This document shows positions 16,756 to 47,236 of a stretch of DNA of 50,046 nt, piece by piece (positions within the stretch are counted from its first letter, which is position 1; each line of letters begins with the position of its first letter). Position numbers and translations under genes: made by a program. The notes under the pieces are model-generated. The model saw nothing but the letters and a program-made list of their open reading frames with translations, searched no databases and was not told the DNA's origin. The DNA is taken from positions 1-50,046 of the IMG/VR virus record IMGVR_UViG_3300038393_001567. One strand, written 5' to 3'. Origin of the DNA: a virus. Lineage: Duplodnaviria > Caudoviricetes.

Positions 16756-16973
16756 TCACCTCCTCCGACCGGCGACAGCGTCTCGTACACCACGACGCGG
16801 GAGACGACGTAGGAGCTGGCGTGCATCCCGTTCACCATCGTGTCCCGCACCGACACCAGTTGCCGGGTATCCCCGAGAAACTGCTCGACCTCCGAATCGA
16901 GCTTGGCGTAAGCGGACCGAATCGCGTCGGCCCCCACACTCCCGGTGGAAGCCACGAACGTCTTCACCATCAT
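16752..16973 (-). CDS. Hypothetical protein (MMVKTFVAST...)
   Basis: 3' part of track ORF 16752..17618; start abuts the queE stop; GAGG RBS. Confidence 0.55.
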   Translation of the reverse strand: MMVKTFVASTGSVGADAIRSAYAKLDSEVEQFLGDTRQLVSVRDTMVNGMHASSYVVSRVVVYETLSPVGGGE

Positions 16974-17716
16974 CACACACCTCGTTTCTTGCCCCAGAGG
17001 ATGGAATGCAACCGGGGCGTAAGGACGTACCCCATATCGGCCAAATGTGGCACTAGCCACCGACACGCCGCCAAGATTTCTTCCGGCTCCTGCCCGTACG
17101 GCATGACGTGGATTTGGAACCCCCGTTTGCGAACTTGGAAGAAGTCGTCGAATTGGGCCACGGCGAGCAGGTCGTGGTCGTCGCGCACCACCAGTTTCAC
17201 GCACGTCTTCCGCTCCCGCCCGGCCAGCGCTTCGAGGATCGCCGCCACGTTCTGGTCGTACTCGTGCTCCCCCTTCGGCCCGGTGAGGCACGGCGTCACC
17301 TTGGGGGAGAAGGAGACGGTGTCGAAGCGGCGGAAGAACCGTTGGCACTGTGCCGCCGTCAACGCCTTGCCGACGTACCCGGACGTTTCGAGTGACTGCC
17401 ACGGCAGGAAGACGTCGATGCGGTCGAGGAACGCCAAGACGTTCTCGTTGGCGTAGTGGATGAGGGGCTCCCCGCCCGACACCACCAGCCCGCACCGCGG
17501 GTGGGCCACGTTGGCGGCCCGGATTCGGCTCGCCAACTCCTCCAAGTGGGTGACGGTGCCCCGCTCGCTCCCGTCCCACGTCCAACTTGTATCGCAACCC
17601 GGACACTGGACCGGGCACCCGTGGAGGCGGAGGAAGTAACAGGGTTTGCCGACGTCGAGGCCCTCACCCTGAATGGTGGGGCCGAAGAACTCGTTGACGG
17701 GGACGGTGAGTTTCAT
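16973..17716 (-). CDS. queE: 7-carboxy-7-deazaguanine synthase (radical SAM)
   Basis: EFFGPTIQGEG..G.P..FLRLHGCPVQCPGCDT (CxxxCxxC), VSGGEP, LETSG, SPK, PRLH. Confidence 0.92.
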   Translation of the reverse strand: MKLTVPVNEFFGPTIQGEGLDVGKPCYFLRLHGCPVQCPGCDTSWTWDGSERGTVTHLEELASRIRAANVAHPRCGLVVSGGEPLIHYANENVLAFLDRIDVFLPWQSLETSGYVGKALTAAQCQRFFRRFDTVSFSPKVTPCLTGPKGEHEYDQNVAAILEALAGRERKTCVKLVVRDDHDLLAVAQFDDFFQVRKRGFQIHVMPYGQEPEEILAACRWLVPHLADMGYVLTPRLHSILWGKKRGV

Positions 17717-17732
17717 GGGAAGGTATACAAAC
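17714..17732 (-). promoter_or_regulatory. GTTTGTATACCTTCCCATG motif, copy 1 (queE start)
   Basis: 19-mer identical to 23711..23729 and 29149..29167; preceded by a GC hairpin at about 17738-17766. Confidence 0.7.
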
Positions 17733-17790
17733 GAAGGCCCCCGGGCACCGTCACGCACCCGGGGGCTACACAAGGAGTTTTGCCGAGGGA

Positions 17791-29094: not shown

Positions 29095-29148
29095 CGGGTG
29101 GTCTTCCAACTCCCGCGGCACCCGACTCATCGTGAGCCGGGTGTTTTC

Positions 29149-29167
29149 GTTTGTATACCTTCCCATG
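29149..29167 (+). promoter_or_regulatory. GTTTGTATACCTTCCCATG motif, copy 3 (PRTase start)
   Basis: Identical 19-mer directly after hairpin CACCCG...CGGGTG-TTTT (about 29119-29147). Confidence 0.7.
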
Positions 29168-29743
29168 ACACCACAACCCAAGCTAAACGTCCAACCCATC
29201 CTCTCGCAGTTGGAGATTGCCGCCCAAGTCAACCGCCACGGCCAGCTCATCACCCACCACTACACCGGGGTCGTGGGGGAACTGGTGGTGGTACCCGTCC
29301 TCATCGGGGCCCTGCCGTTCGCCGCCGACCTCCTCCGGTTCATCAAGCGCCCGCTACGCGTCGAGCCCGTGCGCGTCTCCACGTACAAGGGGGAGACCAA
29401 ACACGTCGCCCCGCCGAAGCTCCACGACGACGTCTCCTTCGCCAACGGCCGGCACGTCCTCGTCGTGGAGGACATCCTCGACACCGGCACCACCTTGGCG
29501 CACGTCGTCACGAAACTCCGTCAAGCCGGGGCCCTGTCGGTCGAGGTTATCGCCCTCCTCCGTAAGCAGGGTACGCAGACGGCGTTTCTGGAAGAGCCCC
29601 GGTGGGTGTGCTTCAACGTCCCGCAGTGTTTCGTAGTCGGGTACGGGCTCGACTACCAGCACCTCCACCGCAACATGCCCTTCATCGGGGCCTTGGTGGA
29701 GGAGCGGGGCGTCGGGAAGAAGCCGGAAATCGTCCAATCCTGA
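29165..29743 (+). CDS. hpt: Hypoxanthine/guanine-type purine phosphoribosyltransferase
   Basis: VL.GA..F.ADL, VSTY loop, PRPP motif VLVVEDILDTGTTL, FVVGYGLDY..RN.PFIG. Confidence 0.88.
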   Translation: MTPQPKLNVQPILSQLEIAAQVNRHGQLITHHYTGVVGELVVVPVLIGALPFAADLLRFIKRPLRVEPVRVSTYKGETKHVAPPKLHDDVSFANGRHVLVVEDILDTGTTLAHVVTKLRQAGALSVEVIALLRKQGTQTAFLEEPRWVCFNVPQCFVVGYGLDYQHLHRNMPFIGALVEERGVGKKPEIVQS

Positions 29744-31058: not shown

Positions 31059-31679
31059 ATGCTACGCATCCGTTTCGTCAACCGTGACGGGGAAGAAGAA
31101 GACAGGGAAGAGCGGCGGGTGGAGTTCAACTCCATGCCGTGGGACGGGCCCATCAAGGGGTACGCCATCAACTTCATCGAACACGTCGCGTGGATGTTCG
31201 CCAACCGGTGTGAGCCCGATGACCTGCTCCAAGAGGCGTGGGTGGTGTACTGGAAGGTGAGCGAGGCTTACCCGCACATCTCCAAGCGCAAACACTTCAT
31301 GGCCCTCTTCAAGTCGGCCCTCCGCAACCACTTCATCAACTACAACCGCAAGCTCAAGCGGTTCCCCGACGTCGTCTCCTTGGCCGACGGAGGGGACGGG
31401 GAGGGAGGCGACTCGTCGGAAATGCTGCCGCCCGTCACCGACGGGCTCGCCGCCGCCGAGCAACGCCTCTTCCGCGACTTCGCCCCGGAGCCGGTGAGGA
31501 ACGTTATCAAGCAACTCTGCGAGGGGGAGCTTCCCCTCCGGTACGAGTGGCGCGACGGGGTGCGCGAAACCACCAACGAATTTCTGGCCCGCGTGGCGGG
31601 CGTGCCCGCCTCCACCCCCGTCGTGGAGATGGTGCTCCAGTACGTGGACGGGCAAACCCCGAAGGAAATCAAGTCATGA
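31059..31679 (+). CDS. Phage sigma-factor-like protein (sigma70 region 2-like)
   Basis: EPDDLLQEAWVVYWKV..Y..HFMALFKSALRNHFINYNRK..VSL resembles the region 2 pattern DDL.Q...F......RN. Confidence 0.65.
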   Translation: MLRIRFVNRDGEEEDREERRVEFNSMPWDGPIKGYAINFIEHVAWMFANRCEPDDLLQEAWVVYWKVSEAYPHISKRKHFMALFKSALRNHFINYNRKLKRFPDVVSLADGGDGEGGDSSEMLPPVTDGLAAAEQRLFRDFAPEPVRNVIKQLCEGELPLRYEWRDGVRETTNEFLARVAGVPASTPVVEMVLQYVDGQTPKEIKS

Positions 31680-32116
31680 AGACTACGTGCATGCGCCGGA
31701 TTCAATTCTGCTCGGGCCACCGCCTCGTCGGGCACGAGTCCAAGTGTTCCCACCTCCACGGGCACAACTACGTGGCCATGATTCACTGCGAGGCCGATCA
31801 ACTCGACGGGGTGGGCCGGGTGGTCGACTTCTCCTGCATCAAAGACGTCATTGGTAATTGGATTGACGAGCAGTGGGACCACGGGATGATCCTCCACCAA
31901 GACGACCCCAACGCCCACGCCATCGCCACCGCGAATCTCGGCGGGGTGGGCCGACAGAAGCTTTACTTGATGGCCGTGAACCCCACGGCCGAGAACATGG
32001 CCGCCCACCTCCTCCAAGTGGGCAACCAACTCTTCGAGCGAGCCCACTACTCCGTCCGCGTCGTCAAGGTGGTGCTCTGGGAGACGGAGAACTGCTTCGC
32101 CGAGGTGACGGTCTAG
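31676..32116 (+). CDS. queD: 6-carboxy-5,6,7,8-tetrahydropterin synthase
   Basis: F.SGHRL..H..KC..LHGHNY, G.VVDF, WDH, NPTAENMA, LWET. Confidence 0.93.
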   Translation: MKTTCMRRIQFCSGHRLVGHESKCSHLHGHNYVAMIHCEADQLDGVGRVVDFSCIKDVIGNWIDEQWDHGMILHQDDPNAHAIATANLGGVGRQKLYLMAVNPTAENMAAHLLQVGNQLFERAHYSVRVVKVVLWETENCFAEVTV

Positions 32117-32986: not shown

Positions 32987-33036
32987 GTTCCCCCGGTGTG
33001 TATACCTTCTCAACCAACGTACGTAAGGAGACAGTC

Positions 33037-33930
33037 ATGCACAACGACGCGATGCGACAAGTGGAGGGCGGGAGCGCCTTGGTGGTGCTTTCGGGCGGGC
33101 AGGATTCGACCACGGCCCTCTTCTGGGCCTTGGAGCGGTGGAAGGACGTGCGGGCCGTCACCATCGACTACAACCAGCGCCACCGGCTCGAAATCGACGC
33201 GGCGAGGAAGGTGGCCCTACTCGCCGGGGTGCCCCACGAAATTGTCGAGGTCGGCCCCGTCCTCACCGGCACCTCCCCGCTCACCAACCCGCAGGAGAAG
33301 GTCGAGCACTACCCCGACTCCGCCTCCCTCCCGGGCGGGCTGGAGAAGACGTTCGTCCCGCTCCGCAACCCCTTCTTCATCACCATCGCCGCCAACCGGG
33401 CCGCCGTCATGGGCACCGACAACCTCGTCATGGGCCTCTGCCAAGAGGATTACGGCGGGTACCCCGACTGCCGGGCCACCTTCGTACAGAAAATGCAGGA
33501 GGCCATCTCCCAAGCCCTCTACGGCACCGATACCGGCTTCACCATCCACTGCCCCCTGATGTTCCTCACCAAGGCCGAGTCCGTACGGTTCGCCAAGGCC
33601 CGCGGCCCGGTGTGCTGGGAGGCTTTGGGCTTCTCCCACACGGACTACGACGGCCAGTACCCGCCCGTGCCCTTCAACCACGCCTCCCTCCTCCGGGCAC
33701 GGGGTTTCAACCAAGCCGACGAGTGCGACCCCCTCATCCTCCGGGCCAAGAGCGAGGGGAAGCTCCCCGACGACTACCCGTGCGACGGGCTGGTGGAGGG
33801 CACCGTCTACGGCAACCCGACGACGTGGGCCGACGCCGTGCGGGCCGGGCTAGAGGCCCGCAACGGGGCCAAGGGGACGCCCACCACGGCCGAACTCCGG
33901 GCCGCGGGGAAGCGGGGGAAGGGGAAGTAA
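33037..33930 (+). CDS. queC: 7-cyano-7-deazaguanine synthase (variant lacking the Zn cysteines)
   Basis: VVLSGGQDSTT, YNQRH..E, TFVPLRN, GYPDCR, PLMFLTKAE. Confidence 0.9.
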   Translation: MHNDAMRQVEGGSALVVLSGGQDSTTALFWALERWKDVRAVTIDYNQRHRLEIDAARKVALLAGVPHEIVEVGPVLTGTSPLTNPQEKVEHYPDSASLPGGLEKTFVPLRNPFFITIAANRAAVMGTDNLVMGLCQEDYGGYPDCRATFVQKMQEAISQALYGTDTGFTIHCPLMFLTKAESVRFAKARGPVCWEALGFSHTDYDGQYPPVPFNHASLLRARGFNQADECDPLILRAKSEGKLPDDYPCDGLVEGTVYGNPTTWADAVRAGLEARNGAKGTPTTAELRAAGKRGKGK

Positions 33931-33949: not shown

Positions 33950-33998
33950 ACCCGGGAGTAAAGGCGGAATGTTTCCGCCTTCTCCCGGGTGGCTTTTG
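33950..33998 (+). terminator. Long hairpin with T-tract between queC and folE
   Basis: ACCCGGGAG..AAGGCGGAA / TTCCGCCTT-CTCCCGGGT then GGCTTTT. Confidence 0.55.
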
Positions 33999-34012
33999 GT
34001 GGAGAGACGGTG

Positions 34013-34615
34013 ATGAATCAAACGGCGTACGAATTAAACGGCACCGAAGTCGAAGCCCACGTCATCGAACGATTCGTGCGGGCTTTGATTCGGCGTGCCG
34101 GTGACGACCCCAACCGCCCCGGCGTGACGGAAACCCCGGCACGTTTCCTCAAGGCTTGGGACTTCTACACGTCGGGCTACAAGCACAAGCCGGAGGAGTT
34201 CTTCAAGACGTTCGCCGACGGGGCCGAGGGCGTGGACGAGATGGTGGTGGTGGGTCCGCTCCGCGTCTACTCCATGTGCGAGCACCACCTCGCCCCCTTC
34301 TTCGGCAAGGCGTGGATCGGGTACATCCCCAACGGCAAGGTACTCGGGCTCTCCAAGATGCCCCGCCTCCTGCGCATCTTCTCCCGCCGCCTCCAAGTGC
34401 AGGAGAGGCTCACCAACCAAGTGGCCGACGCCATGGTCCAACACCTCCAGCCCCTCGGCGTCGGCGTCGTGCTCCAGTGCCGGCACCTCTGCATGGAGTG
34501 CCGGGGCGTGGAGGAGGTCGGGGCCGTCACCACCACGTCCGCCCTCCGGGGCAACATCAAGAACCTGCCCGACGCCCGGGCGGAATTCTTGGCTTTCGCT
34601 CACAACGGTAAATGA
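34013..34615 (+). CDS. folE: GTP cyclohydrolase I
   Basis: ETPAR, YSMCEHHLAPFFG, GLSK..R, RRLQVQERLT, HLCM..RGV. Confidence 0.95.
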   Translation: MNQTAYELNGTEVEAHVIERFVRALIRRAGDDPNRPGVTETPARFLKAWDFYTSGYKHKPEEFFKTFADGAEGVDEMVVVGPLRVYSMCEHHLAPFFGKAWIGYIPNGKVLGLSKMPRLLRIFSRRLQVQERLTNQVADAMVQHLQPLGVGVVLQCRHLCMECRGVEEVGAVTTTSALRGNIKNLPDARAEFLAFAHNGK

Positions 34616-34674
34616 TCGACGTCGACGCTTACATGAATTGGCTAACCCGCCCGGAATCGGGCAAGGAGAACGTC

Positions 34675-34959
34675 ATGAGTTGGTCCGCGAGTGGAAAGAT
34701 CCTTACCCAACCGGGTCGTGCCCCGGTAATCGAGCTGTCGGCACAGCAGACGCAGACGGGCAACGGGGCTCAGGAGTCCAAGGACGCCTTGGAGATGGCC
34801 AAGACCGTAGCCCGTGACATCGTCGACACCGGGCGCCTCGGCACCGGTGAGTTCACCGTCAACCTCTCCGGCCATGCTAACGACGGGAATAAGCCGGTGC
34901 CCGGGTGGTCCAACGACTACCTCACCATTACCATCAACCAGCAGTCACCGCCGAAGTAA
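34675..34959 (+). CDS. Hypothetical protein within the deazaguanine cluster
   Basis: AAGGAG RBS before the ATG at 34675; VNLSGHAN..PGWSND motif. Confidence 0.6.
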   Translation: MSWSASGKILTQPGRAPVIELSAQQTQTGNGAQESKDALEMAKTVARDIVDTGRLGTGEFTVNLSGHANDGNKPVPGWSNDYLTITINQQSPPK

Positions 34960-35082
34960 CCCGGCACACCACAACCCGCAATCCCCCGGCAGGACGGGCG
35001 GTCTCCCCTCTCCACCAACGGGCCACCCTCACCACCCTGCCGGGGGATTTGCGTTTTGTATAGATTTGACGGGGAGACTAAG

Positions 35083-36114
35083 GTGAGCCCGCGAATGATC
35101 CGACACGTACGACTACTCCTAGACTCCGGGGCCTTCTCCGCTTGGCGGATGCGCAAGCGGATTCCCCTCGCGGAGTACGTCGACTTCGTCGAGCGCCACC
35201 ACGACTACCTCACCCACTACGTCAACCTCGACGAGATCCCCGGCACCCCGGGGGCCAACCCCACCTCCCGCCAAGTCGACGAGGCGGCGCACGCCAGTTG
35301 GTCCAACTACCTCAAGATGCGCGAGGCGGGCCTCGACCCGTGGCCCGTCTTCCACATCGGCGAGCGGTTCCTCTGGCTGGAGAAGATGGTGAGTGCCGGG
35401 GCGAAGTACGTCGCCCTCGGGGGCATCGCACTGGTCGACGAGCGGGAGCGGCGGCGGTGGCTGGACGACGTGTTCCACTTCCTCTCCGGCAACCGCGGGT
35501 ACCCGATGGTGAAGGTGCACGGTCTCGGCGTCTCCTCCGCGGAGATCATCCACCGCTACCCGTGGGCCTCCACCGACTCGACGACGTGGCTTAGCGTGGC
35601 GTCCAACGGGGCCGTGCTCATCCCCGCCGAGGGCGACTTCGAACGCAAGCCCCTCCAAGTCGAGTTCGTCACCAAGAAGCTCAACGGCGAGGCCTCCACC
35701 TCCACGGCCAAGGCCGCCCACTTCAAGCAACTCGGCCCGGGGTATCAACGGTACGTCACCGACTACCTCAAGCAAGAGGGGTACGAGCCCGACGGGCTGG
35801 AGCACTACGTGGACCGGCGGCGACTCAACGTCCGGTACTTCCTCCGGTGTGCCGCGGCTCACCGCCTCCGCCCCTTCCGCTCGGTTACTAGCAACGTGTT
35901 CCGAACCGCCACCCTCCCCGGCCTCCCGTCGAAGCCCGACCGGTTCCGCTTCTACTTCGCCTCGGACCGCCGGTGGATGATGGCCAAGCCCCTCCACGAC
36001 GAGGGGGCCCGCAATCAACTCCTCTCGTACTACATGCTGAAAGACGCCACGGACTTGCGGGAGTACGTGTTGACGGGCGAATTCCCCCACATCGAAAAGG
36101 AAGCCAGCAAGTGA
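35083..36114 (+). CDS. dpdA: DpdA/TGT-like deazaguanine DNA transglycosylase, paralog 1
   Basis: LLDSGAFSAW, NLD.IPG, PVFHIGE, VALGG, KVHGLG, YPWASTDSTTW; adjacent to folE and queC. Confidence 0.7.
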   Translation: MSPRMIRHVRLLLDSGAFSAWRMRKRIPLAEYVDFVERHHDYLTHYVNLDEIPGTPGANPTSRQVDEAAHASWSNYLKMREAGLDPWPVFHIGERFLWLEKMVSAGAKYVALGGIALVDERERRRWLDDVFHFLSGNRGYPMVKVHGLGVSSAEIIHRYPWASTDSTTWLSVASNGAVLIPAEGDFERKPLQVEFVTKKLNGEASTSTAKAAHFKQLGPGYQRYVTDYLKQEGYEPDGLEHYVDRRRLNVRYFLRCAAAHRLRPFRSVTSNVFRTATLPGLPSKPDRFRFYFASDRRWMMAKPLHDEGARNQLLSYYMLKDATDLREYVLTGEFPHIEKEASK

Positions 36115-37166
36115 GCAAGGACTTCGCAATCAAGTTGATGCTTGACAGTGGCGCGTTTTCGGCGTGGAAGCTCAACAAGGAGATTTGCGTCAAGCGGTAC
36201 CGCAAGTTCCTCCTCCGCAACCGGGAACACCTCTGGTGTGCCGTCAACCTCGACATCATCCCCGGCCGCCCCGGCACCCGCACGAGTAAGCAGGTGGAGG
36301 AGGCCGCCGCCGCGTCGTGGGCCAACTACCAGTACCTCACCGAAGCCGGGCTGAACGTGATGCCGGTGTACCACTTCGGGGAGCGACTCGACTGGCTCAA
36401 GCGGATGGTGGACTCGGGGGCCCCGTACGTCGGACTGGGTGGCGTGGCCACGGCCCCCGACAGGGTGCGCCGGCCGTGGCTCGACGAGATGTTCAACTTC
36501 TTCTGCGGCACCAAGGGGTACCCCACCGTCAAGATTCACGGCATGGGCATCACCAGCCCGAAACTGGTGGAGCGGTACCCGTGGTACTCCACCGACTCCA
36601 TCTCTTGGGTGGGGCTGGGCGGCATGGGCATGTGTACCATCCCGGTGCCCGACGCCTCCGGCCGGTTCGACTACTTCCGCAACTTGAAGGTGGGCTTTTC
36701 CAAGGGGAGCGTCAAGGGGCTAACCAACACCCAGTCCCTCCGCGGAGACCACTACAAGTCTTTGGGCCGTGGCACCCGGGCTTTCGTGGACAGGTGGCTC
36801 GAAGAGGAGGGCTTCGACGCGGAGGAGTTGTGCGAGAACCGCAACACCCGTCTTCGGGTGAACGCCCGGTACTTCAAACGGATGGCCGAAGCCCACCCGA
36901 TGAAGCCCCACCTCCGCCGGGCCGGGCTATTCTCGGAGCCCGTCAAGCAGTGTGACGCCGGCAAACCGCCGTTCAAGTACCGCATCGTTTTCTCCGGCGC
37001 AGACAAGGACCCCGACGCCGTGATGCTCACCAAGGAGCGGTGCCGGTACCGCCTCATTAGCTACTTCCTCTTCATGGACGGGGCCAACCCCGTCGACCTC
37101 CCCCGGTACGTGCGCACCGGGTGTGTGCGCGAGCAGGAGGGGGAGAAGATTCGCCTCCGGGTATAA
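36111..37166 (+). CDS. dpdA: DpdA/TGT-like deazaguanine DNA transglycosylase, paralog 2
   Basis: MLDSGAFSAW, NLDIIPG, PVYHFGE, VGLGG, KIHGMG, YPWYSTDSISW; GTGA overlap with paralog 1. Confidence 0.7.
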   Translation: MSKDFAIKLMLDSGAFSAWKLNKEICVKRYRKFLLRNREHLWCAVNLDIIPGRPGTRTSKQVEEAAAASWANYQYLTEAGLNVMPVYHFGERLDWLKRMVDSGAPYVGLGGVATAPDRVRRPWLDEMFNFFCGTKGYPTVKIHGMGITSPKLVERYPWYSTDSISWVGLGGMGMCTIPVPDASGRFDYFRNLKVGFSKGSVKGLTNTQSLRGDHYKSLGRGTRAFVDRWLEEEGFDAEELCENRNTRLRVNARYFKRMAEAHPMKPHLRRAGLFSEPVKQCDAGKPPFKYRIVFSGADKDPDAVMLTKERCRYRLISYFLFMDGANPVDLPRYVRTGCVREQEGEKIRLRV

Positions 37167-38288: not shown

Positions 38289-38386
38289 TACGGCCCCTTT
38301 CCCGCTTATCGACCCTTGGTTAGACATGCGCCTTACGGGGCTCATGGCCGGGGGCGGGAAGGGGACTTTTGTTTGGAGTCATAGTA

Positions 38387-41110
38387 ATGGCGTTGATGGA
38401 AGGCTTGTTCACCCGCACGGAAGTCAAGGAGAAGGTCCTCTCCGTCTCCCGCAAGATGGCCTTCACCCCCGAGCGCCTCCACCAACTCGGGCTGGCGGGC
38501 GTGAAGGGGATGAACCCCCGGGCCAAGCACCCCAACATGGAGCCCAGCGGGCCCGAGTCGTCGAAAGTCTACGTCCTCTCCCTCCACCCGGGGGAGGAGG
38601 AGGACAAGCAGAACCGGCCCCTCATCGGCAACTCCGGGCGCTTCCTCTTCCGCCACCTCCCCGTCAAGACGGGCTTCCGCCTCGGGTACATCGTGCGCAC
38701 CCTCCCGCCCAACGGGAAGGACGGCAAGCCCCGTAAGGTGACGCCGACGGAGGTCGAGTGCTTCCGCCCCTCCGTCGTGGCCGACATCGAGCGCGTCAAG
38801 CCCCGCGTCATCGTCGGGCTAGGCACCGACGTCGCCAAGTGGGTGCTCGGCGACGGGTTCAAGGTCGACGTCGGCGTGGCTCGCGGGCGCCGGTTCCCCG
38901 TCAAGGTGGGCTCGCACGTCTGCTGGTTCCACCCCGTCTACCACCCCTCGTACGTCCTGCAGAAGTTGGAGGAGGAAGAGGCGGCGAGGCGGGCCGGGCG
39001 GCCGGTCAAACGCAACCTCGACGAGCCCAACCCCAAGGACTTGGAAGACGCCTTCCACCGCGACTTGGTCCGAGCGTTCAGGGACGGGAACGAGGGGGAG
39101 GATACCCCGGAGATCCTCGACGCGGACCTTGACACCCTCTTGAAGCCCGTGACGCTGATGGAGGGAGGCGGGGAAAAGGAGGTGCGGTACGTCGAGGCCT
39201 TCCTCGCCAAAGCCTCCAAGAGCAAGCGGGTGCAGTCGGTGGACCTCGAGTCCAGTGCCCTCCGCCCCTACACCAAGGGGGCCAAGCTCCTCTCCGTCTC
39301 CGTCGGGCATTGGGAGGGGGAGACGCTGGCGATCGCCCTCCACCACCCGCAGGCGCACTGGAGCAAGCCCCACCTCGACCGAATCCACAAGGCCCTCAAA
39401 TCCTTCTTCTGCTCCAAGGCGAGGAAGGTGGCCCACAACCTCTCCACGGAGCTGGAGTGGTTTGCGTACGTGTACGGCCCCGACGTCCTCAAGACGGCCA
39501 AGACGTGGCACTGTACGTACAACCAAGCGTACGCCCTCGACGAAAGGAAGGGCGGGCACTCCCTCAACTTCCTCTCCGTCCTCCGGTTCGGGCTACAGGT
39601 CAAGTCACTCTCCAAGGCCACGCTAATCACCGGGAAGGGCTCCGGGCCACTCGCCGACTTCTTCGACGTGGGCACGGAGGAGAAGATCGACCGGGCGAGA
39701 CTGGAGCAGACGAAACTCGCGTACGTGCTCAAGTACAACGGGCTGGACGTACGCTTCACCTCGTACCTCGAGACCATCCAGCGCCGACTCCTCCGGGCCG
39801 ATAACCTCTGGGGCTTCTACAAGGACTTCCAAGTCAAGCGCATCAAGGCCCTCGTACAGGCCCAACTCTCCGGCATGGTGGTGAACGAAACCGCTACCGC
39901 GGAGTTCACCACCGACCTCTCGGCCAAGGTGAAGCGGGCGGAGCGGGCCATCCGGGAGCTGCCGGCCGTCAAGAAGTACGTGGCACGCTTCGGGGAGTTC
40001 AACCCGGGGTCTGAGAAGCTCATCAAGAAACTGTACGCCGACGTGCTCAACGTCAAGCTAACCTCCACCAAGGAGGCCACGCTACTCGACGTCAAGGCCA
40101 AGTACCGGGGAGACGCGGCGGAGCTGGCCCAACTCATCCTCGACTTCCGCAAGCCGGGGAAGATGCTCTCCACGTACGTCGACCCGCTCAAGGCCGACAC
40201 CCCCAACTCCGTGCTCTTCCCGGATAAGAAGATCCACGCCGTCTTCAAGGCGTGTTGGACCGGCACCGGGAGACTCGCCGCGGAAGACCCCTCCGTACAG
40301 AATTGGCCGAAGCGCAAGAACGCGTGGCTCCGGGCCGTCATCGGGTGCCCTGCCAACCACGTCATGCTCTCGTGCGACGAGGGCCAACTTGAGTACCGCG
40401 TGGCCGGGATGAACTCCCGGGACAAGGTGCTGGTGGACTCGATGTTCACCGGGTTCGACGTCCACCAGTATTGGGCCGAGCGCATCGTCAGGAAGTACGA
40501 CAAGACTTTCCTCGCCCGCGGCGGGGACATGAAGGCGTTCCGGGGCGACGTGAAGAACCAATGGGTATTCCCGCAAATCTTCGGCTCCTCCCCGGGCTCG
40601 TGCGCCAAGAATCTCCAGATGCCGGAGAAGATTGCCTATGAGCTGGCCGAGGAATTCTGGGAGCAGTTGAAGGGCGTGCGAGCGTGGCAGAAGCGGGTGA
40701 CGGGGTTCTACGACAAGCACTTTTACGTGGAGTGTCTCTCCGGGCGCCGGCGCCGCGGGCCCCTCTCGTACAACATGCAGATTAACTCCCCGATTCAGGG
40801 CCTTGCCTCCGACATGGTGGTGGACGCCATGGTGAGACTGGCGGAGCTATCCATCACCCTAGACAAGCCGTACCTCGCTCCCGTCCTCAACATCCACGAC
40901 GACCTCACCTTCTACGTGCCCAAGCGGCGGGTGGAGGAGGCGCTGGAGTACATCGTGCCGGCGATGCTCACCTTCGATTACCCGTGGGCCGAGGGCATCC
41001 CGATGATGGTGGAGGCGTCGGTGGGCAACGATTGGGGCAATCAATCCCCGGTGGGCAAGTTCGACGGCGTCAAGCTCGGCATCGGAAACTTCACGGCCCG
41101 GGCCGCGTAG
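38387..41110 (+). CDS. Family A DNA polymerase with N-terminal UDG-like domain and 3'-5' exonuclease
   Basis: UDG-like PGEEED..PLIG.SG, IVGLG, YHPSY; Exo DLES, AHN, YNGLD; TGRL..P.VQNWP, motif A DEGQLEYR, INSPIQG.ASD, motif C IHDD. Confidence 0.92.
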   Translation: MALMEGLFTRTEVKEKVLSVSRKMAFTPERLHQLGLAGVKGMNPRAKHPNMEPSGPESSKVYVLSLHPGEEEDKQNRPLIGNSGRFLFRHLPVKTGFRLGYIVRTLPPNGKDGKPRKVTPTEVECFRPSVVADIERVKPRVIVGLGTDVAKWVLGDGFKVDVGVARGRRFPVKVGSHVCWFHPVYHPSYVLQKLEEEEAARRAGRPVKRNLDEPNPKDLEDAFHRDLVRAFRDGNEGEDTPEILDADLDTLLKPVTLMEGGGEKEVRYVEAFLAKASKSKRVQSVDLESSALRPYTKGAKLLSVSVGHWEGETLAIALHHPQAHWSKPHLDRIHKALKSFFCSKARKVAHNLSTELEWFAYVYGPDVLKTAKTWHCTYNQAYALDERKGGHSLNFLSVLRFGLQVKSLSKATLITGKGSGPLADFFDVGTEEKIDRARLEQTKLAYVLKYNGLDVRFTSYLETIQRRLLRADNLWGFYKDFQVKRIKALVQAQLSGMVVNETATAEFTTDLSAKVKRAERAIRELPAVKKYVARFGEFNPGSEKLIKKLYADVLNVKLTSTKEATLLDVKAKYRGDAAELAQLILDFRKPGKMLSTYVDPLKADTPNSVLFPDKKIHAVFKACWTGTGRLAAEDPSVQNWPKRKNAWLRAVIGCPANHVMLSCDEGQLEYRVAGMNSRDKVLVDSMFTGFDVHQYWAERIVRKYDKTFLARGGDMKAFRGDVKNQWVFPQIFGSSPGSCAKNLQMPEKIAYELAEEFWEQLKGVRAWQKRVTGFYDKHFYVECLSGRRRRGPLSYNMQINSPIQGLASDMVVDAMVRLAELSITLDKPYLAPVLNIHDDLTFYVPKRRVEEALEYIVPAMLTFDYPWAEGIPMMVEASVGNDWGNQSPVGKFDGVKLGIGNFTARAA

Positions 41111-46270: not shown

Positions 46271-47236
46271 ATGAAGACGACAGAAGAAACGCCAACCAAG
46301 CCGGCCGGTGACTTGCACGTCAAGTACCGGCCGGATTCCTTTGATAACGTCATCGGGCACGAGGGCGTCGTCAAGTCGGTACAAAAGGTCCTCGCCGGGA
46401 AACTCGGCAGGGCTTTCTTGTTTGTCGGCCCCCCGGGCTCCGGGAAGACGACGCTCGGGCGAATCATCGCCCGCAGGGTGAAGTGTCACAAGCACAACCT
46501 CTTGGAGATTGACGCCGCCTCCAAGTCGGGCATCGACGACATGCGCACCCTCACCGAGTCCCTCTCCCTCTCCCCGCTCGACGGGGGCTCCAAGGTGGTG
46601 ATCCTCGACGAGGCGCAGGGGCTGAGTAAGCAGGCGTGGGACTCCCTCCTCAAGACGATCGAGGAGCCCCCGCCCCGCGTCTATTGGGTGCTCTGCTCCA
46701 CCAACCCGGGGAAGATCCCGCCCTCCATCCAGTCCCGGTGCCAGAAGTACACGCTCACCGGGGCCAACAACGAACAACTCCGCACCCTCCTCGACCACGT
46801 GGTCGAGCAGGAGGGGTGGGAAACCCCGTCGGAAGTGCTCGGCATCGTGGCCAAGAAGGCCGACGGGAGTTACCGCAACGCCCTCACCTACCTCGCCCAA
46901 GTGTACGAGTGTGCGACGCGGAAGGAGGCCCTCGAAGTCATCAAGACGGTTTCTCTGGACGACGGGGAGGTGGTGGACCTGTGCCGTGCCCTGTACAACG
47001 GCAACCCGGGTTGGGAGGAGTGCCAGCGCCTTCTCGCCCCGCTCAAGGAGCAGAAGCCGGAAACCCTCCGCATCGTGCTCACCAACTGGTTCATCCAAGT
47101 GGCCCTCACCGACAAGAGGCCGCTGACGGTGGGCCGGGCTCTTGAGGTGTTGTCGGCGTTCGACACCCCGTACCCCGACTCGCCCAACATCGCCCCCTTC
47201 GTCGTGTCACTGGCACAACTCACCATGGGAGAATGA
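46271..47236 (+). CDS. Clamp loader AAA+ ATPase (DnaX gamma/tau-like)
   Basis: KYRP..F..VIGHE, GPPGSGKTT, EIDAAS, ILDEAQ, LLKTIEEPP, SRC, GSYRNAL. Confidence 0.9.
   Translation: MKTTEETPTKPAGDLHVKYRPDSFDNVIGHEGVVKSVQKVLAGKLGRAFLFVGPPGSGKTTLGRIIARRVKCHKHNLLEIDAASKSGIDDMRTLTESLSLSPLDGGSKVVILDEAQGLSKQAWDSLLKTIEEPPPRVYWVLCSTNPGKIPPSIQSRCQKYTLTGANNEQLRTLLDHVVEQEGWETPSEVLGIVAKKADGSYRNALTYLAQVYECATRKEALEVIKTVSLDDGEVVDLCRALYNGNPGWEECQRLLAPLKEQKPETLRIVLTNWFIQVALTDKRPLTVGRALEVLSAFDTPYPDSPNIAPFVVSLAQLTMGE

What the first reader, a model, noticed from the sequence alone, without database searches (positions are those of the whole stretch)
35083..37166. Tandem, translationally coupled DpdA-like paralogs that both look catalytically intact
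Seen: two collinear but well-diverged proteins of about 345-350 aa overlapping at GTGA. Both keep DSGAFS, NLD, PVxH, HGxG and STDS. Inference: they differ in target sequence or in the base inserted, act as a heterodimer, or one acts on tRNA. Described phage systems typically rely on one DpdA.
Basis: partly seen in the sequence, partly recalled or inferred. Interest (0 to 1): 0.7.

Follow-up and report, generated by a model that had tools for sequence, protein, structure and literature searches.

The report
Twin circularly permuted phage DpdA enzymes
An uncultured phage carries two adjacent, 41%-identical genes of the enzyme family that swaps guanine in DNA for a 7-deazaguanine; both keep the full active site, both have the first piece of their predicted barrel fold moved to the end of the chain, and they likely mark different DNA sequences to widen protection from host restriction enzymes.

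Summary
Two intact genes (35083-36114, 36111-37166) overlap at GTGA and encode 343 and 351 aa proteins, 41% identical, that keep both catalytic aspartates and the base pocket of phage DpdA1. They sit in a phage preQ0 cluster (folE, queD, queC; queE elsewhere).

The chain starts at barrel strand 3, and strands 1-2 are fused at the C-terminus (profile match 95.8%; both models align to DpdA 7UI4 only from residue ~84 yet close a whole barrel). Relatives carry this piece at the N-end, at the C-end or as free mini-genes.

Multi-copy dpdA is rare but not unique: 6 of 149 environmental loci, Microbacterium phages Megan and Nicole72, and phage Knocker in a published table.

Best reading (about 0.5): two independent enzymes insert preQ0 at different DNA motifs. 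That step is inferred; the divergence pattern is ordinary for the family. An obligate heterodimer or a tRNA target is unlikely. New variant of a known kind.

The parts
35083..36114 (+). dpdA-1 (copy A): circularly permuted DpdA1-type transglycosylase, 343 aa; D14, F18, D50, H91, D165 kept
   Evidence: (phrog_887 E 4.6e-40 from profile position 57)
35941..36090 (+). C-terminal module of copy A (residues 287-336) = barrel strand 1, helix, strand 2, N-terminal in canonical DpdA1
   Evidence: 12.0 bits to an HMM of N-terminal segments; 0 of 1000 shuffles reach it; strands 289-293, 311-315
36111..36114 (+). GTGA stop/start overlap between the two genes
   Evidence: spanned by an independent contig
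36111..37166 (+). dpdA-2 (copy B): circularly permuted DpdA1-type transglycosylase, 351 aa; D12, F16, D48, H88, D162 kept
   Evidence: (phrog_887 E 2e-45 from profile position 53)
36975..37133 (+). C-terminal module of copy B (residues 289-341)
   Evidence: strands 291-295, 313-317; 2.8 bits alone, 6 of 1000 shuffles reach it; family profile match 95.8%
33989..34615 (+). folE, GTP cyclohydrolase I (preQ0 step 1)
   Evidence: above curated cut-offs
31676..32116 (+). queD, 6-carboxytetrahydropterin synthase family
   Evidence: PTPS E 1.3e-26; below the TIGR03367 cut-off
32998..33930 (+). queC, preQ0 synthase, with no glutamine amidotransferase domain
   Evidence: TIGR00364 above cut-off, residues 27-203
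16973..17773 (-). queE-like radical SAM gene, about 14 kb from the cluster
   Evidence: (phrog_2076 E 1.2e-37)
34612..34959 (+). small ORF of unknown function before dpdA-1 (likely start ATG 34675); 57% identical homolog at the same place in L006
37173..38288 (+). beta-clamp-like gene, followed by a UDG-fused family A polymerase (38369-41110); dpdA next to a clamp as in phage 9g

Best explanation
The two genes encode intact, long-diverged, circularly permuted DpdA1-type proteins that likely act as independent enzymes, each predicted to swap guanine for phage-made preQ0 in the phage's own DNA, likely at different sequence motifs. Shown here: open frames, active-site residues, the permutation, the preQ0 gene set and recurrence of multi-copy arrays. 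From established knowledge: FolE-QueD-QueE-QueC make preQ0 from GTP; DpdA exchanges it for G after replication using one Asp as nucleophile (D165/D162 here) and one as acid/base (D14/D12); the modification blocks restriction enzymes; single DpdA1 enzymes have narrow motifs (GA+GGC in CAjan, GA in iggy). Inferred: the base is preQ0, both copies are active, and keeping two copies widens the set of protected sites.
For: Active site: all CAjan-numbered positions D63, S64, F67, D105, H132, G153, G154, D206 are kept in both; F189 is L/M (residue list from PMC7544227). Fold: pLDDT 92/89 models with DpdA 7UI4 at Z 14.0 and 13.9, tied with archaeal TGT. Permutation: alignment to 7UI4 covers model 1-266 to chain 84-411, while unrelated barrels align over model ~4-342. 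C-terminal module versus 64 N-terminal segments picked by position only: HHalign 95.8%, E 7.8e-9. The module is C-terminal in 54 of 149 short-N proteins and in 1 of 67 long-N proteins. Independence: 12 distinct loci with at least 1.5 kb flanks hold a single permuted copy; bacterial DpdA is a monomer (PMC10164549). Retention: 41% identity, 7 of 8 listed strain differences synonymous, and copy A groups with the first copy of the related phage L006 (90/93). DpdA motifs differ between phages (PMC10484667). Identity is 50-57% in strands 3-8 but 25-31% in the post-nucleophile insertion and the moved module, regions proposed to touch DNA in PMC10164549.
Against: No test of activity or motif. The low identity in the DNA-facing regions is not special to this pair: among 190 family pairs of similar core identity the medians are 27% and 28%, and 126 and 130 of 190 are as low or lower. 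One CAjan DpdA already serves two motifs, so two motifs do not need two genes. Old orthology is not established: support for copy B with L006's third copy is 52/78, and a lineage-specific duplication is not rejected (p-AU 0.51). The record is about 63% complete, so a base-changing enzyme could lie outside it. The aromatic wedge essential in Salmonella DpdA (Phe265) could not be mapped; the position where CAjan and 9g have Phe holds Asn and Met here.
Confidence: 0.52

Rival explanations
1. Both copies are active with the same or largely overlapping motif; the duplicate is kept for dose, timing or robustness.
For: Divergence pattern is ordinary for the family; pocket residues near-identical; one DpdA can cover two motifs.
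Against: 41% identity with both frames intact implies long joint retention; coupled genes in one operon leave little room for different timing; pure redundancy usually decays, as the dead middle copy of L006 and the frameshifted copy of L186 show.
Confidence: 0.2
2. The copies insert different 7-deazaguanines (for example preQ0 versus CDG, ADG or host preQ1).
For: Some DpdAs have shifted or relaxed base choice (VH7D DpdA2). The Gly-rich loop differs after GG: IALV versus VATA. The record is incomplete.
Against: No QueF, ArcS, Gat-QueC or formyl/methyltransferase hit among 51 proteins scanned with Pfam. Neither loop has the Gly of the preQ1-type motif of PMC10164549, though that rule already fails for 9g and CAjan, which have Gly there.
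Confidence: 0.1
3. The two proteins form an obligate heterodimer or swap their C-terminal modules.
For: Stop/start coupling suggests equal amounts; tRNA TGTs are dimers and a non-catalytic TGT subunit exists (QTRT2); free modules near 72 of 149 loci imply the piece can work in trans.
Against: Each chain closes its own barrel in prediction; 12 single-copy permuted loci; bacterial DpdA is monomeric; both keep catalytic residues, unlike a catalytic/non-catalytic pair.
Confidence: 0.07
4. One copy is inactive or regulatory despite an intact motif set.
For: Copy A has the longer branch (0.76 versus 0.46) and lacks an aromatic residue at the position where CAjan has Phe; dead copies occur in such arrays (L006 middle gene).
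Against: All eight pocket/catalytic residues kept; the 3 listed strain differences in copy A are synonymous; the sole DpdA of Edwardsiella phage ZHS also has Asn there.
Confidence: 0.07
5. One copy modifies tRNA or another RNA.
For: Shared TGT fold; archaeal TGT ties with DpdA in the fold search.
Against: No Pfam or NCBIfam TGT hit; no zinc-binding cysteine motif or PUA domain in either sequence; no tRNA gene in the window; both nest among phage DpdA1-type proteins.
Confidence: 0.04

Closest known systems
Phage DpdA1 of Escherichia phages 9g and CAjan and Pseudomonas phage iggy (PMC6884629, PMC7544227, PMC10484667)
   Same: About 31% identity to 9g DpdA; same catalytic and pocket residues; folE/queD/queC/queE present; dpdA next to a beta clamp.
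   Different: Two copies instead of one; first two barrel strands are C-terminal; extra loop after NLD; queE is detached from the cluster.
Microbacterium phages Megan (gp2, gp3; MN586020) and Nicole72 (OR159674)
   Same: Two overlapping tandem dpdA genes, 46% identical in Megan, both with intact sites, beside preQ0 genes.
   Different: Distant lineage (about 30% identity to the window pair); Megan's QueC is 455 aa with a long N-terminal extension that looks like a Gat domain; both keep strand-2-like sequence at the N-end. Annotated only; no paper found.
Mycobacterium phage Knocker in Cui et al. 2023, Data S1 (PMC10516641)
   Same: One phage tabulated with two DpdA entries two loci apart (QWY84440, QWY84442).
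   Different: Listed as two subfamilies (DpdA4 and DpdA1) with QueF and DpdM; not mentioned in the main text; I did not check the record.
Bacterial DpdA, Salmonella Montevideo, PDB 7UI4 (PMC10164549)
   Same: Top or tied-top structural match; same two-aspartate mechanism.
   Different: Canonical strand order, structural Zn site, needs the DpdB ATPase; no DpdA/B/C model hit among 12 proteins scanned with PADLOC.
Edwardsiella phage vB_EpM_ZHS DpdA (UNA00821)
   Same: Closest cultured relative (37%), similar queC-folE-dpdA-clamp-polymerase layout; also starts at strand 3.
   Different: Single copy, 266 aa, with the module at neither end; ZHS_63 is only a weak candidate for a free module.

Membership tests
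Phage DpdA1 | Sequence homology to 9g DpdA | tested here: met
   31% identity, E about 2e-29 pairwise for both; phrog_887 E 4.6e-40 and 2e-45
Phage DpdA1 | Two catalytic Asp plus pocket Ser, Phe, Asp, His, Gly-Gly | tested here: met
   all kept in both copies
Phage DpdA1 | TGT-type eight-stranded barrel | tested here: met
   predicted models; 7UI4 Z 13.9 (rmsd 3.4, 229 aligned) and Z 14.0 (rmsd 4.1, 228 aligned)
Phage DpdA1 | Phage context with preQ0 synthesis genes | tested here: met
   folE, queD, queC, queE; virus record
Phage DpdA1 | Canonical order, strands 1-2 at the N-terminus, as in 9g, CAjan, Dp-1, phiSM (a shared trait of characterised members, not a published criterion) | tested here: not met
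   circularly permuted; hence filed as a variant
Phage DpdA1 | Inserts a 7-deazaguanine into DNA | not testable with these tools
   needs LC-MS or nanopore data
tRNA-guanine transglycosylases (bTGT, aTGT) | TGT family profile, structural Zn site, PUA domain (aTGT) | tested here: not met
   no Pfam or NCBIfam hit; no CxCxxC motif in either sequence
Bacterial Dpd system (DpdA-B-C) | bDpdA with Zn site and linked dpdB, dpdC | tested here: not met
   no PADLOC DpdA/B/C hit in 12 proteins; only a SNF2 helicase with partial DpdE hits
DpdA2, DpdA3, DpdA4 | Closest homology to nt-1, phiST or HVTV-1 proteins | not tested
   no direct comparison; the top 60 phage hits of each search were 9g-type or unlabelled

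The most novel reading that the evidence does not exclude
The moved strand-1/strand-2 module is a specificity plug. Phages keep it at either end of DpdA or as several free mini-genes, and in arrays like this one the two cores and two modules could recombine in trans, so a few genes would write a combinatorial set of 7-deazaguanine motifs, like the swappable specificity subunits of restriction-modification systems.
Probability: 0.12. Interest if true: 0.75.

Novelty: new variant of a known kind. Interest (0 to 1): 0.47.

Why it matters
Motifs are known for very few DpdA enzymes and what sets them is open. A natural pair with one pocket, one precursor and one host, but different DNA-facing parts, allows a clean test by single expression and module swaps. 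If the motifs differ, duplication is a route by which phages extend epigenetic protection against restriction and Cas9 PAM reading. A natural barrel found fused at either end and also split is a good case for protein evolution. It also explains annotation misses: Pfam, NCBIfam and PADLOC give no hit, and the database gene call for copy A (P0122) starts at residue 23, after the catalytic Asp.

Tried and rejected
Frameshift fusion: the second gene's frame is open from 35892, but no X XXY YYZ heptamer lies in frame there, and L006 has a third gene between its copies; rejected.
Accelerated divergence of DNA-facing parts: seen, removed by the control.
A third multi-copy phage in run X2 (record 10): spacing (3790 nt) and identities equal L006's, so not counted as independent.
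Single-protein scans of IMG/VR found nothing or one distant locus.
Partner search by shared contig length: recovered L006's pair and one further probable pair (P0007/P0230, 37% identical). No partner was listed for P0003, P0004, P0008 or P0123, but that search also missed P0002, so the blank was not used.
PDB sequence searches gave nothing below E 0.2, so Salmonella Phe265 was not mapped. Foldseek gave no match at E<=0.001 for copy B (7UI4 rank 30).
Palindrome counts: GATC 0.51 and TGCA 0.60 of expectation; cannot name a motif.
No Rfam match, no tRNA, no RNA holder listed, no Atlas hit for the small ORF.
0 of 50 prokaryotic-genome loci had two copies.

Full report
Observation. The window is a linear virus record, about 63% complete, with tail genes on the left and replication genes on the right. 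Two ORFs, 35083-36114 (343 aa) and 36111-37166 (351 aa), overlap at GTGA. They are 41% identical and collinear, 67% alike in DNA over only 360 nt, and have the third-position GC of real genes here. A contig from a second study spans the junction without gaps; the run that matches the whole stretch exactly may be the source and is not counted. Seven of the eight differences listed within the two genes are synonymous; the table was cut, so this is a small sample.

What they are. Both hit PHROG 887 but no Pfam, NCBIfam or PADLOC model. Both are about 31% identical to DpdA of phage 9g and 37% to that of Edwardsiella phage ZHS. Aligned with CAjan DpdA, both keep D63, S64, F67, D105, H132, G153, G154 and D206; F189 is Leu or Met (residues from PMC7544227). 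In Salmonella DpdA the equivalent two aspartates are essential (PMC10164549). The window has folE, queD, a stand-alone queC and a distant queE. No QueF, ArcS, Gat or other base-changing enzyme was found among 51 proteins scanned with Pfam. Phages with this gene set (CAjan, Rosebush, iggy) carry dPreQ0 (PMC10484667).

Circular permutation. Both proteins start within 14 residues of the first catalytic Asp, whereas 9g, CAjan, Dp-1 and phiSM have 46-71 residues before it. AlphaFold models (pLDDT 89 and 92) have six barrel strands in the first ~165 residues and two more near the C-end. Structure alignment to 7UI4 and the TGTs covers model 1-266 against chain ~84 onward, while unrelated barrels align in order over ~4-342. 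A profile of the C-terminal module matches a profile of 64 N-terminal segments chosen by position only at 95.8%, E 7.8e-9. An HMM of those segments scores copy A's tail at 12.0 bits (0 of 1000 shuffles) and copy B's at only 2.8 (6 of 1000). Among 216 homologs with the motif, 54 of 149 short-N proteins have the module at the C-end, against 1 of 67 long-N proteins; that one, P0018, has it at both ends. Among 149 distinct environmental loci the module is C-terminal in 22, N-terminal in 11, free-standing in 72 (5 of these also N-terminal) and undetected in 49. That HMM was seeded on the C-terminal form and under-detects the others.

How common are multiple copies. In GenBank phages, 3 of 193 records have two places: Megan (two accessions) and Nicole72. 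Megan gp2 and gp3 overlap, are 46% identical and both keep the site. Six have two intact copies (L006, L064, L097, L104, L122, L151) and L186 has one intact and one frameshifted. Many loci are short: among the 95 with 1.5 kb on both sides, 4 are multi-copy. None of 50 prokaryotic-genome loci is. L006 is a related phage with the same gene order and three copies, the middle one lacking the catalytic residues. Pairs fall in several parts of the tree, so they arose more than once. Copy A groups with L006's first copy (90/93) and copy B weakly with its third (52/78); a lineage-specific duplication is not rejected.

Mechanism. Shown: two intact permuted DpdA1-type proteins in a preQ0 cluster. Established: DpdA exchanges G for preQ0 after replication, the mark blocks restriction enzymes, and motifs differ among DpdA1 enzymes. 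Inferred: each copy works alone, since each closes its barrel, 12 well-flanked loci have a single permuted copy and bacterial DpdA is monomeric; both use preQ0; and they differ in motif. The copies are 50-57% identical in strands 3-8 and 25-31% in the insertion after the nucleophile and in the moved module, which hold the elements proposed to contact DNA. The control shows this pattern is typical of any family pair at that distance, so it permits but does not show different motifs. I put different motifs at 0.52, redundancy 0.20, different base 0.10, heterodimer 0.07, one inactive 0.07, tRNA 0.04.

What is in print. Searches for 'DpdA' with 'circular permut', 'two dpdA / second dpdA / dpdA paralog', 'two copies', permuted/split, Megan and Knocker found no description of tandem phage dpdA genes or of a permuted DpdA. 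Data S1 of Cui et al. 2023 lists Mycobacterium phage Knocker with a DpdA1 and a DpdA4 entry, without comment in the text. The part of the Hutinet 2019 table that I read lists one DpdA per phage (part 1 of 2). What I saw: passages of PMC6884629, bioRxiv 2023.04.13.536721, PMC10484667 and PMC5699537; passages and one section each of PMC10164549 and PMC7544227; supplement parts as named (part 1 of 19 for PMC10516641). A 2024 review of 7-deazaguanines is recalled only, did not appear in the listings and may mention such cases; subscription papers and bioRxiv supplements were not searchable. Earlier notes of this scan report tandem, split and permuted DpdAs in other genomes. I had recorded the permutation before looking; they are leads, not support.

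Verdict. Real, and correctly read as two intact DpdA paralogs. It is a rare, recurring and apparently unstudied variant of a known system, with the added feature of circular permutation. Interest 0.47.

Noticed in passing
L024, L043, L067, L165, L215 and others (72 of 149 distinct loci): One to five free-standing 45-70 aa ORFs (MKIYxA...RLLSYY type) flank N-truncated dpdA genes: split DpdA with several alternative first pieces.
   Followed up: partly
P0018 (457 aa): Carries the module at both ends, the expected intermediate of a permutation.
   Followed up: partly
L006:5377-6477: Catalytically dead dpdA paralog (no D63, H132, GG or D206 equivalents) between two intact copies.
   Followed up: partly
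window 34612-34959 +: Small ORF of unknown function, 57% identical to the ORF at the same place in L006 and found in no other fetched locus searched; no family or Atlas hit.
   Followed up: partly
window 29132-29743 +: Hypoxanthine phosphoribosyltransferase-like gene (TIGR01203 E 2e-38, below cut-off), 2 kb before queD; no homolog in the dpdA loci searched. Could feed GTP or salvage released guanine.
   Followed up: partly
window about 34977-35053 +: Long GC-rich hairpin just upstream of dpdA-1 (z -3.0, 1 of 200 shuffles); no Rfam match.
   Followed up: partly
window 16973-17773 -: queE lies about 14 kb from the other preQ0 genes, on the opposite strand at the end of the tail region.
   Followed up: no
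window 38369-41110 +: Family A DNA polymerase with an N-terminal uracil-DNA-glycosylase-like domain, next to a clamp; a clamp-loader-like ATPase at 46271-47236.
   Followed up: no
L004:6013-6813 (Edwardsiella phage ZHS): A cultured phage whose DpdA lacks the module at both ends; ZHS_63 is a weak candidate for the free piece. A handy test case for split DpdA.
   Followed up: partly
L005:1626-2543 (Megan gp3): By eye it has only the strand-2 motif at the N-end and a strand-1-like stretch near the C-end, possibly a permutation with another breakpoint.
   Followed up: no
L104, L122 and several homologs: Some DpdAs replace the pocket Gly-Gly with Ser-Pro (SPAND type); L122 pairs one GG-type with one SP-type copy, a better candidate for different bases.
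   Followed up: no
whole window: GATC (0.51) and TGCA (0.60) are depleted; GGATCC, AGATCT, TGATCA, TCGCGA and CAGCTG are absent.
   Followed up: no
run X2, record 10: A contig with L006's spacing and identities occurs in the same run as a near-identical strain of the window's phage.
   Followed up: partly
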